A stretch of 64,000 nt of DNA, taken from positions 57,226,001 to 57,290,000 of the forward strand of contig OZ024747.1 in assembly GCA_964016885.1 (NCBI GenBank). The letters run 5' to 3'. The notes under the pieces are model-generated. The model was not told the origin of the DNA. It was given only the letters and a program-made list of their open reading frames with translations, and ran no database searches. Positions 9,132-57,822 of this stretch are shown piece by piece. Origin of the DNA: Eledone cirrhosa (Eukaryota). The first letter of the stretch is position 1. Each line of letters begins with the position of its first letter. Both the position numbers and the translations under genes were made by a program.

Positions 9132-9339
9132 AGAAGTTTTCATTTCTTCTGTCTTTACCCAATTTTCAAAGCTGTTACAGTTTTTTTCAGTATCTGGAGA
9201 TTCCTACATTTTCAAATTTCAAATCAGCCAGTGTTGCAACAATTAATAATATCTATGTATTTCTCTTAATAAAGAAAGAAAAATTAATGTTTGATGCAGA
9301 TGTAATAGGAAACATATGTATAAATATAACAATAAGAAT

Positions 9340-9862
9340 TATTGCGTACAGTGCTCAGGTGCACTACAACTCATTAAAGGTGGATGTTTAGTACATAGAA
9401 TAATGTACAAATGTCAGGAAAGTGAACAGTGCGTGAGTCATGATATACAAACAGACACACACATGCATATGTGTGTGTATAGAGGGGGAGAATATCTGGT
9501 GTAGTGTTGGTGAATTTTGGGAGGCATGCAAGTTTTGGAGGATGCAGTGTCCCAACAGCTAGCAACTGATGCAGGGAGTTTGTTCCATGCTTCCGCAACT
9601 CTGAGCATGAAAACATGTTTCCGAAAATCATGGGAGCTGTGCTGTTTTCTGATTTTGTAAGCATGTCCATGGGTGTTAGACATGGAATTTAAAAAGGTGC
9701 TCAGGGTTGTTGTTGGAAAGATGGTTAATAATCTTGTGAGTGTTTACCAAATCAGTTGCCAGATGTCAGAGCTTTAATGTATCCATGCCCAGGGAAGCAA
9801 GGCATTCAGAGTATGGCAGATACTCGATGGTGTATATTTGTTTGGTTACATGTCTCTGAACA
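9340..9862 (-). pseudogene. CR1/L2-group LINE 3' fragment
   Basis: VQRHVTKQI..LPYSECLASLGMDTL..THGHAYKIRKQHSSHDFRKHVFMLRVAEAWNKLP; 3' stem GTGCACCTGAGCAC; other copies at 35495-35815 and 32685-32770. Confidence 0.85.
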
Positions 9863-9980
9863 GGAAACATTTGTATAAACATAATCCTGAAGTATTCTGT
9901 AGTAAGGCTACACAGAGGAGTTTCAAATCTGAGATATTTCCACATAATCAATGCCTAACAGTAATTTAGGAATAGATAAA

Positions 9981-10372: not shown

Positions 10373-11111
10373 GTTTCAATACACACACACACACAACCAC
10401 ATACATGCCTCCCCCGCACCCCTGACAACCAGACCTTTCACCTACCCACACTACATTTTTTCCCATCACAATACCTTTTGTTTTCTTAACTTCCTTTCAT
10501 AGCTTTATCACACTACTCTTACGTCTATCTGCTTTCCTGAAGAAGGAGTTCTGTCTGAAACATTGAGACCTTCTTCACTTCTTCCAAGTGTGAACCTGAT
10601 ATATAACTATGTAATTTTGCTTCCTGTGTTTTGTTTTGTTTCATTTATTAACTATACACACACACAAACATAAACATATATATATATATGTATGTATGTA
10701 TATATATGTATATATACCCTGATGGTATCCAATGATGTTGACTTGTTCTTCTTTTTGGTAAATATCATCTTGGTTAAGAGAGTGGGACTGGCTTTGTGCA
10801 GTGCCTTTGCTCACTGTAAAAGCTTCACAACACAGGCATTGCTTTATATCTGGAGATCTCTCTGCACTTGTCGTCACATGGTACCATGGGCCAGGGCACT
10901 ATGTGTCAATAATTGTCACAAGTGTAGTGTTTGTACCAGAGTTTTCAAGTCGCTGGCTGGACTAAAAAGTCACACTTGTTCAGCGCATCAGTAGGGGTTC
11001 TCCTACATGGATATAAAGTAGTGGCCGTACTCGAAAACGAGTTGGCAGCCACCATATGTTTTATTGATAGCGCACTGTATATCTCTCTCTGGTGTGTTAC
11101 CTTTTCAATAT

Positions 11112-11143
<32 letters not shown>

Positions 11144-11152
<9 letters not shown>

Positions 11153-11654
11153 AGATCAAAAGATGGTTAAAAGAGTTCCTTGTATTTTATTATGCGCATT
11201 TCAAAAACAAATATCATCATGCAATAATATTTGTGTTTTCATCAGATAAAATAGGAAGACATGATATGAAGGTTAAAAAACACTTGTGGATAGTGCAGTT
11301 TTAAATCAACATTCAGAGTATGGCAGATACCCGATGGAGTATATTTGTTTGGTTACATGTCTCTGAACAGGAAACATTTGTATAAACATAATCCTGATAT
11401 GTTGATTTAAAACTGCACTATTCACAAGTGTTTTTTAACCTTCATATCATGTCTTCCTATTTTATCTGATGAAAACACAAATATTATTGCATGATGATAT
11501 TTGTTTTTGAAATGCGCATAATAAAATACAAGGAACTCTTTTAACCATCTTTTGATCTTATATATTATGTATACTCCAGTCCTACAAACTGTAGAGTGCT
11601 TCTTATCCGATATCTGCATTGCTTTATTGTACTACAATCAAACTCACCTCCTAC
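11144..11654. mobile_element. Fold-back HHR mini-element in (TA)n: 169-bp arms, about 86-nt loop, tail with conserved motif
   Basis: 11144-11312 is the reverse complement of 11399-11567 (1 mismatch seen); ACTC(11573)..GAGTGCT(11594); (TA)n on both sides. Confidence 0.85.
11458..11528 (+). ncRNA. Type I hammerhead ribozyme, intact core; mirror copy at 11183-11253 (-)
   Basis: TATTTTAT-CTGATGA-[AAACACAAATAT..ATATTTGTTTTT]-GAAA-TGCGCA-TA-ATAAAATA; 8-bp stem I, palindromic stem III. Confidence 0.85.
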
Positions 11655-11670
11655 ATATATATATATATAT

Positions 11671-11778
11671 ATGTATATTATGCTTTAAATAATCAATGAA
11701 ATGGAACTGGAATCAAATACTGAAAACCAAATATTATGTACTGTTGAATTTTCAGACTATGAGAACAACAGAAATATG

Positions 11779-11812
<34 letters not shown>

Positions 11813-12251
11813 ATTCACTGGGTGGGTTACTGGGTGTGCATACACACACACTTATATACATATACATACACGTACCAAAATCTATTTTCTGCTTGATTTT
11901 TACCCTCTCTCTCTCTGTCTCTTTTCTCTCTACGCATATATATATATATATATATGCGTAGAGAGAAAAGAGAGACAGAGAGAGAGGGTGAGTGAGAGAA
12001 AGAGGGTGGGAGAGAGAGAGAAGATAAAAAATATGAGAAGGTAAAAAGCAAGCAGAAAATAGATTTTGGTACGTGTATGTATATGTATATAAGTGTGTGT
12101 GTATACACACTCAGTAACCCATCTAGTGAATCCTTATATATATATATTCCATATTTCTGTTGTTATCATAGTCTGAAAATTCAACAGTACATGATATTTG
12201 GTTTTCATTATTTGATTCCAGTTCCATTTCATTGATTATTTAAAGCATAAT

Positions 12252-12257
<6 letters not shown>
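11671..12257. repeat. Long imperfect inverted repeat (about 210-225-bp arms) with nested hairpin 11902-11989
   Basis: 11671-11895 versus 12049-12257 reverse complement; inner hairpin centred on (TA)n near 11945. Confidence 0.92.
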
Positions 12258-12308
<51 letters not shown>

Positions 12309-12314
<6 letters not shown>

Positions 12315-12566
12315 ATGTTGAAAAGGTAACACACTAGAGAGAGATACAGTGCGCTATCAATAAAACAGGGGAAAAAACCACCAGTGTATGGAATCTATAA
12401 CCTATGGTGGTTTTTTTCCCTGTTTTATTGATAGCGCACTGTATAGCTCTCTCTGGTGTGTTACCTTTTCAACATATTGTATTTTAAAGAGCTCAGGATT
12501 TACTCTCCTTTGAGCACATTATTTACAGGGAATGGCGAGGGCCGATGGCTCCGTTAATTTATCGTG
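12309..12566. repeat. Fold-back element in (TA)n, about 75-bp arms, 21-nt loop, one-sided tail
   Basis: 12309-12383 versus 12405-12481; partial extra copy at 11057-11116. Confidence 0.85.
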
Positions 12567-12905: not shown

Positions 12906-13017
12906 ATATGTATATATATATGTAAGTATGCACATGTACACACACACAAACACACAAACACATATATATATACAATTGATATTAAATAAATGGAAACTAT
13001 ATTTATAAAACCATATT

Positions 13018-13079
13018 TATTCTATTATATATATTTCAAGGGTACCAACAATTTTAGTACGCTATCATCAGATAAAATA
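13018..13079 (-). ncRNA. Type I hammerhead ribozyme
   Basis: Reverse strand TATTTTAT-CTGATGA-TAGCGTACTAAAATTGTTGGTACCCTT-GAAA-TATATA-TA-ATAGAATA. Confidence 0.75.
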
Positions 13080-13144
13080 CAACATTTTTTATAAATATTT
13101 GACATGACCAAGGATAATATACCTTAACGGTTCAAGTTATCCCT

Positions 13145-13618: not shown

Positions 13619-13950
13619 TATATATATATATATATATAGTAATAATAATAAAATTGAAGACTAAAATCCAGAGAGGGCGTTTACAGATTGACCTTGTTAG
13701 TTTCAGAAGATCCCGTTAAGGGTGAAAGCAGCGATTCTTTGCTTAAACTTTAATCTGTTATCTTAATAAATATATATATATATATATATACATGGAAAGT
13801 TATATTTAAATTGTTGGGTTACAACTAGTAAATATTTATAACTGATATAAAAGCACTCAACAAATCAACTTTTTCAAATCAACTTTTTCAAATACAAGTC
13901 GATGTTGAACGGTATGTCAAATCTATTTATCTATAAAACTGTCTATATTG

Positions 13951-14016
13951 TATTTTGTCTGAGGAAGGCATAACATATTGTTAATATGATATCCCTGAAA
14001 TATATATAATGAAATA
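13951..14016 (+). ncRNA. Type I hammerhead ribozyme; inverted tail of a related element at 13791-13863
   Basis: TATTTTGT-CTGAGGA-AGG..CATATT GTT AATATG..CCT-GAAA-TATATA-TA-ATGAAATA; AGCACTC at 13852. Confidence 0.75.
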
Positions 14017-14082
14017 AATATGGTTTTATAAATATAGTTTCCATTTATTTAATATCGTATATATATATATATATATATATAA

Positions 14083-28562: not shown

Positions 28563-29048
28563 TGTGTGTGTGTGTGTGTGTGTGTATATATTCCTATCTT
28601 TTTATTTCAATTAAATGTAGGGTCTAGTTAATTCCACTAGAAGCCTTAGTGATGATGTAACAGCAACACCCATGTGTATGGAGAGGACATTCAAACTGTA
28701 ATTGTCACATTCAAAATAATGATTGCTTCTGTAAACCAGCAGGACTATTGCTTCTCTTAATGTTTCCTTTCTTTCTATCTTTCTAGCTTTCCCTTTGTTG
28801 TTGTTGTCACTGTTGCAGTAGTAGCTGTTGTTGATATTGTAGTTGTTGTTATAGTAGTTGTTGTCATTGTCTCCTTTATTGTTATGTGTGTGTATATAAT
28901 GATAATAATAATAATAATAATAATAATTGTTTCTACTTTTGACACAAGGCCAGCAAATTATCCCAGTACATTACTGGTACTTTATTTTATCAACCCCGTA
29001 AGGATGAAAGGCAAAGTTAACCTCGGCGGGATTTGAACTCAGAATAGC

Positions 29049-29082
<34 letters not shown>

Positions 29083-29676
29083 TTTATTGTTTCTACTTTT
29101 GGCACAATGCCAGCAATTACTCAGTGTATTACTGGTACTTTATTTTATCGACCCCGTAAGGATGAAAGGCAAAGTTAAACTCGGCGGGATTTGAACTCAG
29201 AATGGCAAGGGCTGTAACTCTATGCATCAAAGCATGGCATCCGACCCTCTACCGATACTGCCAATAATAATAATAATAATAAATAAGGAACAAAGAACCA
29301 GTGTTGCATCATATACATATTTAATTACATATTACATATGTTTCACTGCCGATCAGCTCGAGGATGATCAAATTATGTTACTTCCTGATGCTGGAATTGG
29401 AAGTTGCTCAGATATGTGTTCTCACATGTAGAGAGATGTCCAAAATTAGTATATCTACATGTGAAAACACATATCTGAGGAGCTTCCGATTACAGAGTTA
29501 GGAAGGAACATAATTCGATCATCCTTGAGCTGATCGGCAGTGAAACATATGTAATTAAATATATATATGATGCAATACTGATTCTTTGTTCGCGATTTAT
29601 TATTATTGATACTCTGCTCCCCAATAGTATTGAGTGCTCATCTTGGCAATCCAATTGCACCTCTACTACTTATATA

Positions 29677-29715
<39 letters not shown>

Positions 29716-30172
29716 TCCTATCTTTTTATTTCAATTAAATGTAGGGTCTAGTTAATTCCACTAGAAGCCTTAGTGATGATGTAACAGCAACACCCATGTG
29801 TATGGAGAGGACATTCAAACTGTAATTGTCACATTCAAAATAATGATTGCTTCTGTAAACCAGCAGGACTATTGCTTCTCTTAATGTTTCCTTTCTTTCT
29901 ATCTTTCTAGCTTTCCCTTTGTTGTTGTTGTCACTGTTGCAGTAGTAGCTGTTGTTGATATTGTAGTTGTTGTTATAGTAGTTGTTGTCATTGTCTCCTT
30001 TATTGTTATGTGTGTGTATATAATGATAATAATAATAATAATAATAATAATTGTTTCTACTTTTGACACAAGGCCAGCAAATTATCCCAGTACATTACTG
30101 GTACTTTATTTTATCAACCCCGTAAGGATGAAAGGCAAAGTTAACCTCGGCGGGATTTGAACTCAGAATAGC

Positions 30173-30206
<34 letters not shown>

Positions 30207-30800
30207 TTTATTGTTTCTACTTTTGGCACAATGCCAGCAATTACTCAGTGTATTACTGGTACTTTATTTTATCGACCCCGTAAGGATGAAAGGCAAAGTT
30301 AAACTCGGCGGGATTTGAACTCAGAATGGCAAGGGCTGTAACTCTATGCATCAAAGCATGGCATCCGACCCTCTACCGATACTGCCAATAATAATAATAA
30401 TAATAAATAAGGAACAAAGAACCAGTGTTGCATCATATACATATTTAATTACATATTACATATGTTTCACTGCCGATCAGCTCGAGGATGATCAAATTAT
30501 GTTACTTCCTGATGCTGGAATTGGAAGTTGCTCAGATATGTGTTCTCACATGTAGAGAGATGTCCAAAATTAGTATATCTACATGTGAAAACACATATCT
30601 GAGGAGCTTCCGATTACAGAGTTAGGAAGGAACATAATTCGATCATCCTTGAGCTGATCGGCAGTGAAACATATGTAATTAAATATATATATGATGCAAT
30701 ACTGATTCTTTGTTCGCGATTTATTATTATTGATACTCTGCTCCCCAATAGTATTGAGTGCTCATCTTGGCAATCCAATTGCACCTCTACTACTTATATA

Positions 30801-30838
<38 letters not shown>
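28563..30838. repeat. 1124-bp tandem duplication with breakpoints in (GT)n; each unit holds two SINE A copies and a fold-back HHR element
   Basis: 28591 matches 29715; identical ORF-track peptides at 29222 and 30346. Confidence 0.95.
29469..29556 (+). ncRNA. Hammerhead motif with 60-nt branched stem II; copies at +1124 and inverted in 30908-31293
   Basis: ACATAT-CTGAGGA-GCT..AGT-GAAA-CATATG-TA; the opposite arm retains stem I partner ATATGT. Confidence 0.65.
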
Positions 30839-30887
<49 letters not shown>

Positions 30888-31293
30888 ACACACATACATA
30901 CATATGTAAGTAGTAGAGGTGCAATTGGATTGCCAAGATGAGCACTCAATACTATTGGGGAGCAGAGTATCAATAATAATAAATCGCGAACAAAGAATCA
31001 GTATTGCATCATATATATATTTAATTACATATGTTTCACTGCCGATCAGCTCAAGGATGATCGAATTATGTTCCTTCCTAACTCTGTAATCGGAAGCTCC
31101 TCAGATATGTGTTTTCACATGTAGATATACTGATTTTGGACATCTCTCTACATGTGAGAACACATATCTGAGCAACTTCCAATTCCAGCATCAGGAAGTA
31201 ACATAATTTGATCATCCTCGAGCTGATCGGCAGTGAAACATATGTAATAATGTAATATGTAATTAAATATGTATATGATGCAACACTGGTTCT
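30418..31293. repeat. About 875-bp palindrome centred on (GT)n(TA)n(CA)n
   Basis: 30908-31293 is the reverse complement of 30418-30795 with one substitution and one small indel seen. Confidence 0.92.
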
Positions 31294-56547: not shown

Positions 56548-56978
56548 CAATTTATCCTATATATATATATATATTTGGAATTTAGCTAAGAATGTAGCTG
56601 TATGCAAATATGTATTTTAATTTTGTATACCTAAAGTAACACGGTATGTTTATAAATAAACATTTAGAAAGCCATAGCTATGAAAACCACTGGCAGCTAA
56701 TGGCACCCAACAGTGTTGGTTGGATGGCATTAGCTGCAAGTGTTTTTCATATCTAAAGAAATACGAAATTCAAATATAAATATATATATATATAGTGGTG
56801 GAACACTGGAAGGTAATATCCGTAGTGGTAGAGCACTCAGTCCAAGGGACGAGTTAGGTAGAAGTGGTTACACAACAGTTAGTTCACCATACCGAGAACA
56901 ATTGTTTCACCTTTGCAGATCTTCAGCTCGGGATGTATATGGTTATAGGAACAGGAAGGACAACCGTACGAACGTGCC

Positions 56979-57600
56979 TTCTCACTCAACGTTAAAACCA
57001 ATGTAGGAAAACAATTTCTAGCCTTCTTAGATAGACACTTCCCCATAGGTCATAAATATCGCTCCATCTTTAACCGACACAAAGTTAAACTAGGATACTC
57101 CTGCGCTAAGAACATGAAGGCCCACATCACCAGCAGCCCTAGGAGCAACACCCCAACAGGGTGCTCTTGCCGTAAGCCTGAAGCTTGCCCCCTTCAACAA
57201 CAATGCAACACACCAGCTGTAATCTATGAAGCTGTGGTCACTTCCAACTGACCAAACGAACCACAGGAGGTCAAATCCTATGTGGGCATGGCGGAGGAAG
57301 CGTTTCCTGAACCACCAGTCTACCTTCAGATACCCGAACAGATGTTCATCCACGAAACTCGCGAGCCACGTATGGTCCCTCAAGGACTCAAGTATAAGGT
57401 ACTCCATTCAATGGAAAGTCATCACTAAGTCCAAGCCATACGCAAGGGGAAATCCGACGTGTGGCTTATGTATTGATGAACGAATAACTATCCTAAAGAG
57501 ATTACGCAATAGTGATTGCCTAAACACGAGAAGTGAATTTTTCACACGTTGTCCACACGTCACCAAACATCTATTGCATAACTACAAGGCTCCAGACTGA
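56979..57600 (+). pseudogene. PLE ORF C-terminus: Cys-rich linker plus GIY-YIG endonuclease
   Basis: NVGKQFLAFLDRHFP..KLGYSC..CSCRKPEACPLQQQC..AVIY..SYVG..RFLNH..CGLCIDER..LNTRSE..CPH; one stop and one frameshift. Confidence 0.9.
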
Positions 57601-57782
57601 TTCTTTGTAATTTTATTTTTAAATTTTTAAATTTTATTTTCAACCAAAAAACTTTCCGAACTTTCGCAGTTATCTCTCTTACACCCCCGCATGCAGTCTA
57701 CTATTGCCTGTGTGAAGTGACTGAGTTACTGCGCACGCGCGTTCGTACGGTTGTCCTTCCTGTTCCTATAACCATATACATC

Positions 57783-57822
57783 CCGAGCTGAAGATCCGCG
57801 AAGGTGAAACAATTGTTCTAGG
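57783..57822 (+). ncRNA. Minimal hammerhead in PLE pLTR; mirror copy 56892-56931 (-) has a perfect stem I
   Basis: CCGAG-CTGAAGA-TCCGCGAAGGT-GAAA-CAATTG-TT-CT(A/C)GG. Confidence 0.85.

What the first reader, a model, noticed from the sequence alone, without database searches (positions are those of the whole stretch)
11144..11567. Hammerhead hairpin whose loop matches local DNA 1.5 kb upstream
Seen: 11310-11397 matches 9803-9890 at 86 of 88 nt. That segment spans the apparent end of a CR1 fragment (about 9862) and its flank, so it looks locus-specific. A CAT microhomology sits at the left junction, and both arms carry an intact HHR. Inference: the polymerase left the element, copied neighbouring sequence, then returned in the opposite orientation. 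This would be a direct footprint of how inverted pLTRs form and capture host sequence.
Basis: partly seen in the sequence, partly recalled or inferred. Interest (0 to 1): 0.75.

Follow-up and report, generated by a model that had tools for sequence, protein, structure and literature searches.

The report
Flank copy inside twin-primed Penelope insertion
A small hairpin-shaped insertion of a Penelope-like jumping gene holds an 88-base copy of DNA lying 1.5 kb away, and at least six sister insertions carry similar local copies, nearly all in the same direction as their source, which likely means that both ends of the cut chromosome were extended separately and one new end copied the exposed opposite flank before the two were joined.

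Summary
Loop 11310-11397 matches 9803-9890 at 86/88 nt, spans the junction of one CR1 copy with its flank, and has only these two full-length hits in the genome. The arms are end pieces (pLTRs) of a Hydra-clade Penelope-like family with at least 1,810 similar fold-backs. Capture recurs: of 21 fold-backs with non-element loops, 7 have a unique local donor and 4 a probable one, all within 2 kb, on either side; 11 of 12 pieces are in direct orientation. Likeliest: two cDNAs primed from both ends of a break, one copying the resected opposite flank, then joined (0.6). Templated insertions are known for L1 and Pol theta. This scan noted similar captures in other genomes (mostly inverted) and twin priming in this genome. 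The direct-orientation rule and kilobase reach look new. No independent reads cover the locus.

The parts
9307..9329 (+). left copy of a 23-nt direct repeat flanking the CR1 fragment (likely target-site duplication)
   Evidence: 21/23 identical to 9862-9884 (BLAST hit)
9330..9861 (-). 5'-truncated CR1-type LINE fragment
   Evidence: 79-86% to 8 genomic copies, all ending at 9863-9864; minus-strand frame resembles a CR1 ORF2 C-terminus (label recalled)
9803..9890 (+). donor of the loop: 59 nt of CR1, the right direct repeat and 6 nt of flank
   Evidence: 1,248 nt from the element's left edge
11057..11143 (.). left flank: segment A of an older fold-back plus (TA)n target tract
   Evidence: mirror copy at 12273-12367 shows A-(TA)n-B without the element
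11144..11312 (-). short arm: inverted pLTR piece ending at the family's inner 3' end point; 2 nt short of the usual inner end; last 3 nt (CAT) shared with the donor
11180..11256 (-). hammerhead motif in the short arm (mirror of the right one)
   Evidence: motif scan; fold
11310..11397 (+). captured loop, direct copy of 9803-9890; keeps the CR1-family letter at both mismatches
11396..11397 (+). GA overlap between donor and long arm; G stands where the element has C, likely a copied RNA cap
   Evidence: inference from 8 of 13 long arms
11397..11655 (+). long arm: pLTR from the likely RNA start to the outer 3' end point; 11568-11655 is the 88-nt tail
   Evidence: in full-length units the sequence runs on into an 821-codon open frame
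11456..11533 (+). minimal type I hammerhead motif: core 11466-11472, long stem II, GAAA 11509-11512, palindromic stem III, predicted cut after 11520
   Evidence: core letters kept in 102-114 of 114 arms
11655..11790 (.). right flank: (TA)n and segment B of the older fold-back

Best explanation
This is a miniature insertion of a Hydra-clade Penelope-like retrotransposon whose centre holds a direct copy of flanking DNA, likely made when both ends of a break in (TA)n were extended as separate cDNAs and one cDNA end copied the resected opposite flank before the two were joined. Shown: the element family, the two fixed outer end points, the clustering of fold points at one position, and the local origin, distance and orientation of the loops. 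Inferred: (1) the endonuclease cuts both strands of the (TA)n tract; (2) each 3' end primes reverse transcription, one at the outer and one at the inner start site, mostly on the same RNA or the same source; (3) both run to the capped RNA start or stop earlier; (4) the break stays open long enough for 1-2 kb of 5' resection; (5) here the right (bottom-strand) cDNA end annealed by 2 nt to the exposed top strand of the left flank at 9890, copied 88 nt, released, and joined the left cDNA end through CAT. Which polymerase copied the flank is not known.
For: Local donors in 7 unique and 4 probable of 21 non-element loops; 0 of 46 unrelated 10-kb loci match the 7 unique loops. All donors lie within 2 kb although 5 kb each side was searched (gap to element edge 185-1,680 nt for 8 loci). 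Direct orientation in 11 of 12 pieces (p 0.006), 8 of 9 for the best 8 loci (p 0.04), with donors on the short-arm side (6) and the long-arm side (5). PMC7165422 and PMC13596132 (passages) tie direct repeats to synthesis in trans on the other resected end. One long plus one short arm in 53 of 57 pairs, never two long. Short arm reaches further inside than the long arm in 9 of 36, the reverse in 2. A few pairs differ at 4-5 family-variable sites (L097, L022, L074, L098). Extra C on the cDNA strand in 8 of 13 long arms beside foreign loops (p 0.001 against 0.2); a cap-derived G is described for L1 (PMC11702581, passage). Loop-donor divergence 12/854 equals arm-arm divergence 16/1,320. The anole element cuts and extends both strands and starts at two internal sites (PMC11167929, parts 1-2 read). 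Unique flank is intact on both sides here.
Against: Arms of one insertion usually share a haplotype (0.84 vs 7.5 differences at 26 variable sites), which a copy-back also predicts. One piece is inverted (L076), and a weak 15-nt match in L154 is inverted too. With only the 7 unique loci the orientation count is 7 of 8 (p about 0.07, by hand). 9 of 21 loops have no local donor. Entry overlaps are only 0-3 nt. Tracts of 50-180 nt from up to 1.7 kb away are far outside the 3-30 nt tracts described for Pol theta, whose microhomology search reaches about 15 nt. In 4 of the 8 arms the extra C also matches the donor. The RNA start is inferred without RNA data. Earlier scan notes on other genomes report mostly inverted captures (unchecked). 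All loci come from one assembly.
Confidence: 0.6

Rival explanations
1. Later repair of a palindrome: the insertion first formed without the loop, was cut at its hairpin centre, and break repair patched in flank DNA copied in trans.
For: Predicts the same direct orientation on either side. Perfect palindromes are common in the family (centre gap of 2 nt in 21 of the 50 listed, counted by eye).
Against: Arm ends are intact to within 0-2 nt of the usual fold point and often keep the extra C. Loop-donor and arm-arm divergence are equal (1.4% vs 1.2%), so any such repair was close in time to the insertion.
Confidence: 0.15
2. Single copy-back: one cDNA from the long start site reached the RNA end, jumped to the flank, then folded back onto itself and stopped where its TA-rich end paired with the (TA)n target.
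For: Explains long+short pairing and shared haplotypes. Here the donor lies on the short-arm side, as this model needs, and the short arm is a subset of the long arm. Self-priming was proposed for head-to-head palindromes in PMC3846280 (passages).
Against: 9 of 36 pairs cannot be copies of one another. Long-side donors are direct (L077, L110, the longer piece of L076). Some centres carry the extra C on both arms (L022, L096, L081). The one arm mismatch here is a standing family variant (weak).
Confidence: 0.13
3. The RT jumped onto a free local fragment (nascent host RNA or single-stranded DNA released by resection).
For: Entry junctions with no overlap directly after the extra C (L069, L079). 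Explains loops without a local donor.
Against: Predicts random orientation; 11 of 12 are direct.
Confidence: 0.09
4. Assembly or sequencing chimera.
For: No independent contig spans the junctions.
Against: Loop and donor differ at 2 sites and the loop keeps the family letter at both. The same pattern occurs at 10 other loci with 0-8% divergence. Short-read contigs show the family's fold-back centres with short fillers. The runs do not cover this locus at all.
Confidence: 0.03

Closest known systems
Hydra clade of C-terminal EN+ Penelope-like elements (Craig et al. 2021, PMC8557442; section 11 and passages read)
   Same: Single frame with RT and C-terminal GIY-YIG-like domain, DKT, CxCX5C linker, CxxC and CxH, no CCHH, hammerhead in the pLTR, (TA)n targets, inverted 5'-truncated copy with a tail at one end.
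   Different: Unit is 3.9 kb (paper: generally under 3 kb); tail is 88 nt (paper: 30-40). Local flank capture at the inversion point was not seen in the parts read.
Anole Poseidon element PAc in vitro (Frangieh et al. 2024, PMC11167929; parts 1-2 of 4 read)
   Same: Two internal start sites that define the tail, an AC-rich site, AT-rich targets, both strands cut and extended, hammerhead cleavage not needed.
   Different: In vitro only; joining of the two products and flank capture are not addressed in the text read.
Adineta vaga Penelope palindromes and host-DNA spacers (Arkhipova et al. 2013, PMC3846280; passages)
   Same: Head-to-head inverted pLTRs with palindromic junctions; host DNA captured between pLTRs.
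   Different: Explained by self-priming on an antisense template; source of the captured DNA not mapped in the passages read. The arm asymmetries here argue against self-copying.
L1 twin priming and templated insertions (bioRxiv 10.1101/2024.08.27.596794, section 4 read; PMC11702581, passages)
   Same: Two target ends prime on one RNA; genomic pieces under 250 bp are copied into the insertion; extra G from the cap.
   Different: L1 templates lie typically within 15 bp of the site; here 185-1,680 nt. L1 twin priming gives mostly non-overlapping parts; here both arms cover the same pLTR.
Pol theta templated insertions (PMC7165422, PMC13596132; passages)
   Same: Direct repeats from synthesis in trans, inverted ones from hairpins, short or no initial overlap, AT-rich ends, repeated rounds (matches the short self-templated fillers).
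   Different: Typical tracts are 3-30 nt and close to the break; the long captures here are 50-180 nt and far away, so another polymerase may be involved.

Membership tests
Hydra-clade Penelope-like element | single ORF, RT followed by C-terminal GIY-YIG endonuclease | tested here: met
   821-codon frame in tandem 3.9-kb units that begin with this pLTR. RT motifs and the endonuclease were read by eye; Pfam gave no match. The window holds only the pLTR pieces.
Hydra-clade Penelope-like element | DKG changed to DKT; CxCX5C linker; CxxC and CxH; CCHH absent | tested here: met
Hydra-clade Penelope-like element | RWK motif | tested here: inconclusive
   RWT/RWI at the expected N-terminal place
Hydra-clade Penelope-like element | hammerhead in pLTR and insertion into (TA)n | tested here: met
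Hydra-clade Penelope-like element | placement in the RT phylogeny | not tested
   no reference proteins fetched, no tree built
minimal type I hammerhead ribozyme | CUGANGA and GAAA cores, UH site, stem I, stem II, palindromic stem III (definition recalled) | tested here: met
   stem II closes with A-U rather than the usual G-C; no Rfam hit
minimal type I hammerhead ribozyme | self-cleavage | not testable with these tools
   needs in vitro transcription
Pol theta templated insertion | direct or inverted copy of flank with 0-3 nt overlap | tested here: met
Pol theta templated insertion | tract 3-30 nt, template close to the break | tested here: not met
   88 nt from 1,248 nt away; 50-180 nt from 185-1,680 nt in the other loci
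Pol theta templated insertion | dependence on Pol theta | not testable with these tools
   needs genetics
L1-type twin priming | two target ends prime separately on element RNA | tested here: inconclusive
   supported indirectly by arm asymmetry and long+short pairing; not shown biochemically

The most novel reading that the evidence does not exclude
Hydra-type Penelope elements integrate through a long-lived double-strand break in which both ends are primed at two fixed sites of one capped RNA and both flanks are resected by 1-2 kb; the rare captured loops are a fossil map of that intermediate (direct orientation = copying in trans; distance = resection length), and the telomerase-related element RT itself may do the copying. 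Inverted pLTRs would then be two cDNAs joined head to head, not self-primed hairpins.
Probability: 0.4. Interest if true: 0.7.

Novelty: new variant of a known kind. Interest (0 to 1): 0.5.

Why it matters
How Penelope-like elements make their inverted ends is an open question; PMC8557442 names it as a task for future in vitro work, and the published suggestion read here is self-priming. A family with thousands of young copies and dozens of intact frames gives countable footprints: arm pairing, arm asymmetry, a likely cap letter, and the side, distance and direction of captured flank. Together they favour two primed ends and an open, resected break, and give direct predictions for the existing in vitro system. 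The single locus is a small repair scar with no sign of function; capture moves under 200 nt and is rare.

Tried and rejected
Rfam scan of the window: no hit. Pfam on the element's frame: no meaningful hit. Public runs: no RNA holder listed. Contigs of X1, X3, X5, X4 laid on 11270-11440 do not span either junction; one 36-nt piece of X1 lies in the loop. X1, X2, X3, X5 have no cover at 9840-9975, so these runs say nothing on this locus. Loops L070, L075, L084: no donor within 15 kb each side; L081, L109, L151, L152, L153, L155: none within 5 kb. Left out before counting: 4 (TA)n-only loops (L073, L078, L082, L083), 6 element-derived loops (L086-L088, L111, L120, L121), L064 (same place as L069), and 5 loci without two full arms. 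L110's own match (91.8%, one microsatellite gap) fell just under the 92% cut of the null table and is counted from the first part of that call. The null for L154 was not masked for element sequence and is not usable. 17 inverted junctions with resolved centres in longer copies showed overlaps or fillers up to 50 nt and no local donor; 4 more were alignment gaps. Hammerhead cut site as fold point: rejected (about 120 nt apart). Loop keeping the ancestral letter at both mismatches: expected by chance 1 in 4, used only against an artefact. Loop as a widespread CR1 piece: rejected.

Full report
1. Observation. The window lies at G000:C7:57226001-57290000 in a 3.0-Gb assembly; the repeats look like those of an octopus (recalled, not checked). 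11310-11397 equals 9803-9890 at 86 of 88 nt on the same strand. The loop is flanked by inverted arms that differ at 1 of 169 nt. The genome search found the 88-mer whole only at these two places among 40 scored of 579 candidates; the other hits cover its first 60 nt at about 85%, one covers 83 nt at 78%. The first 59 nt belong to a minus-strand CR1-type fragment (label recalled from its translated motif) whose truncated end is at about 9861 and which is framed by a 23-nt direct repeat. The loop therefore carries a junction that exists once. Direction is donor to loop, since the donor is embedded in a continuous 530-nt CR1 copy. At both mismatches the loop keeps the letter most family copies have, which speaks against a copying artefact of the assembly.

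2. The arms. They are pLTR pieces of a large family: 9,128 exact matches to one 29-mer. Full units are 3.9 kb, start with this 257-nt pLTR, run on into an 821-codon frame and end in the next pLTR. The protein has DKT, a CxCX5C linker, CxxC and CxH motifs and no CCHH, the marks given for the Hydra clade; no tree was built. Copies end at two fixed points, after about 169 nt (short) or 257 nt (long), each followed by (TA)n. The long end is an internal, AC-rich point of the RNA, as in the anole element. The window element is short arm 11144-11312 (-), loop, long arm 11397-11655 (+). It sits in the (TA)n tract of an older fold-back whose mirror arm shows the same flanks without it, so no unique flank was lost. 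Both arms hold a minimal type I hammerhead motif conserved across 114 arms; its predicted cut lies about 120 nt from the fold point and is not involved.

3. Fold points. With exact 17-mers on both sides, 1,606 fold-backs have a centre gap of 0-34 nt and 204 have 35-400 nt; only the first 50 of each were listed. Most listed centres are perfect palindromes, short fillers copied from the arm ends, or further element sequence. Short-read contigs of a related sample show the same kind of centres.

4. Does capture recur? Patterns that exclude the native continuation and the list gave 30 loci that I fetched with 5 kb each side. Leaving out 4 (TA)n-only and 6 element-derived loops, 20 plus the window have non-element loops. 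Seven have a unique local donor (window -1,550; L069 +845; L071 +1,904; L076 +1,168 and +969; L077 -1,142; L079 +419; L110 +1,274; 92-99% identical, 49-183 nt), and none of 46 other 10-kb loci matches them. Four are probable (L080, 50/50 but a repeat that 10 of 46 other loci match at 92% or more; L085, partial; L072 and L074, 26-31 nt). One is a weak inverted 15-mer (L154). Nine have no donor. All donors lie within 2 kb. Eleven of 12 pieces are direct (p 0.006); 8 of 9 for the best eight loci (p 0.04); 7 of 8 for the unique ones alone (p about 0.07, by hand). Six donors are on the short-arm side, five on the long-arm side. Loop-donor divergence (12/854) equals arm-arm divergence (16/1,320), so capture is about as old as the insertion. 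Against roughly 1,810 fold-backs the rate is of the order of 0.5-1%, a lower bound since 154 of the 204 long-gap loci were not listed and diverged copies are missed.

5. One polymerase or two? In 57 distinct pairs, 53 are long plus short, 3 short plus short, 1 intermediate plus short, none long plus long; arms mostly share a haplotype (0.84 vs 7.5 differences, computed with one duplicate row). Both a copy-back and twin priming on one RNA predict that. They differ on content: a copied-back arm cannot hold sequence its template lacks. In 9 of 36 pairs with a gap of 30 nt or more the short arm reaches over 15 nt further into the element (L120 260 vs 2; L121 253 vs 5; L150 822 vs 236), in 2 the long arm does (extents can be underestimates at poly-G runs). 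L146 has a nearly whole inverted unit ending at the short point. A few pairs differ at 4-5 family-variable sites. On the cDNA strand the letter after the arm end is C in 8 of 13 long arms next to foreign loops, where the element has G, and on both arms in L022, L096 and L081. I read this as a copied cap, as described for L1, and the fold point as the RNA start; no RNA data were available.

6. Mechanism. With two primed ends, the left top strand and the right bottom strand are the 3' strands that survive resection. A cDNA end that anneals to the opposite tail gives a direct copy whichever side the donor is on; a hairpin on its own tail gives an inverted one. The data fit the first. Free RNA or DNA fragments, or invasion of duplex, would give both orientations. 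For this locus: the right cDNA, complete with the extra C, paired by 2 nt at 9889-9890, copied 88 nt away from the break, and was joined to the left cDNA through 3 nt. The steps of cutting, resection and joining are inferred. The tracts are longer and much farther away than those typical of Pol theta or L1, so the enzyme is open. Later repair of a cut palindrome gives the same geometry and remains the main rival (0.15); copy-back is possible for this locus alone (0.13).

7. What is known. Inverted pLTRs, tails and host DNA between pLTRs are published for Penelope-like elements; two start sites and extension of both strands are published in vitro; templated insertions are published for L1 and Pol theta. 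Seven paper searches listed no study that maps local captures at Penelope inversion points; the library lacks most subscription papers and supplements were not read. PMC12016303 (passages) and bioRxiv 10.64898/2026.07.22.740005 (passages) added nothing. This scan has noted twin priming in other families of this genome and single captures in at least eight windows of other genomes, most described as inverted; these notes are unchecked and were read after my analysis.

8. Verdict. Real, locus-specific and recurrent; a new variant of a known kind of insertion scar. Its value lies in the family-wide pattern, which makes the origin of inverted pLTRs testable. Interest 0.5.

Noticed in passing
window 11057-12482: The element sits in a (TA)n tract of an older, larger fold-back (A-B-C mirrored at 12013-12367, A mirrored again at 12421-12482), whose mirror arm serves as an empty-site proxy.
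   Followed up: partly
window 12962-13090 and 13945-14072: Another inverted pair (86 nt, 90%, 939 nt apart) with decayed hammerhead motifs at 13071 (-) and 13959 (+): likely a second Penelope-like family.
   Followed up: no
window 28913-31104 and 56926-57788: A 1,124-nt tandem duplication with hammerhead-like motifs at 29475, 30599 (+) and 31104 (-); an inverted motif pair at 56926 (-) and 57788 (+).
   Followed up: no
G000; L143-L150: Dozens of intact 821-codon frames, some in 3.9-kb tandems: the family was active recently. Pfam does not recognise the protein.
   Followed up: partly
L081, L086, L087; lists: Many centres hold repeated rounds of a 3-21 nt unit copied from the arm ends, a slippage pattern like iterative end-joining synthesis or telomerase-type repeat addition.
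   Followed up: no
L097:centre (G000:C1:26849161): The two arms carry haplotypes of two different subfamilies (5 variable sites): two templates or later gene conversion.
   Followed up: partly
L049, L140, L045: Three inversion junctions lie at pLTR positions 122-128, next to the predicted hammerhead cut (after 122).
   Followed up: no
L070, L075, L084 loops: Foreign loops of 53-313 nt without a donor within 15 kb; L075 is a short tandem array.
   Followed up: partly
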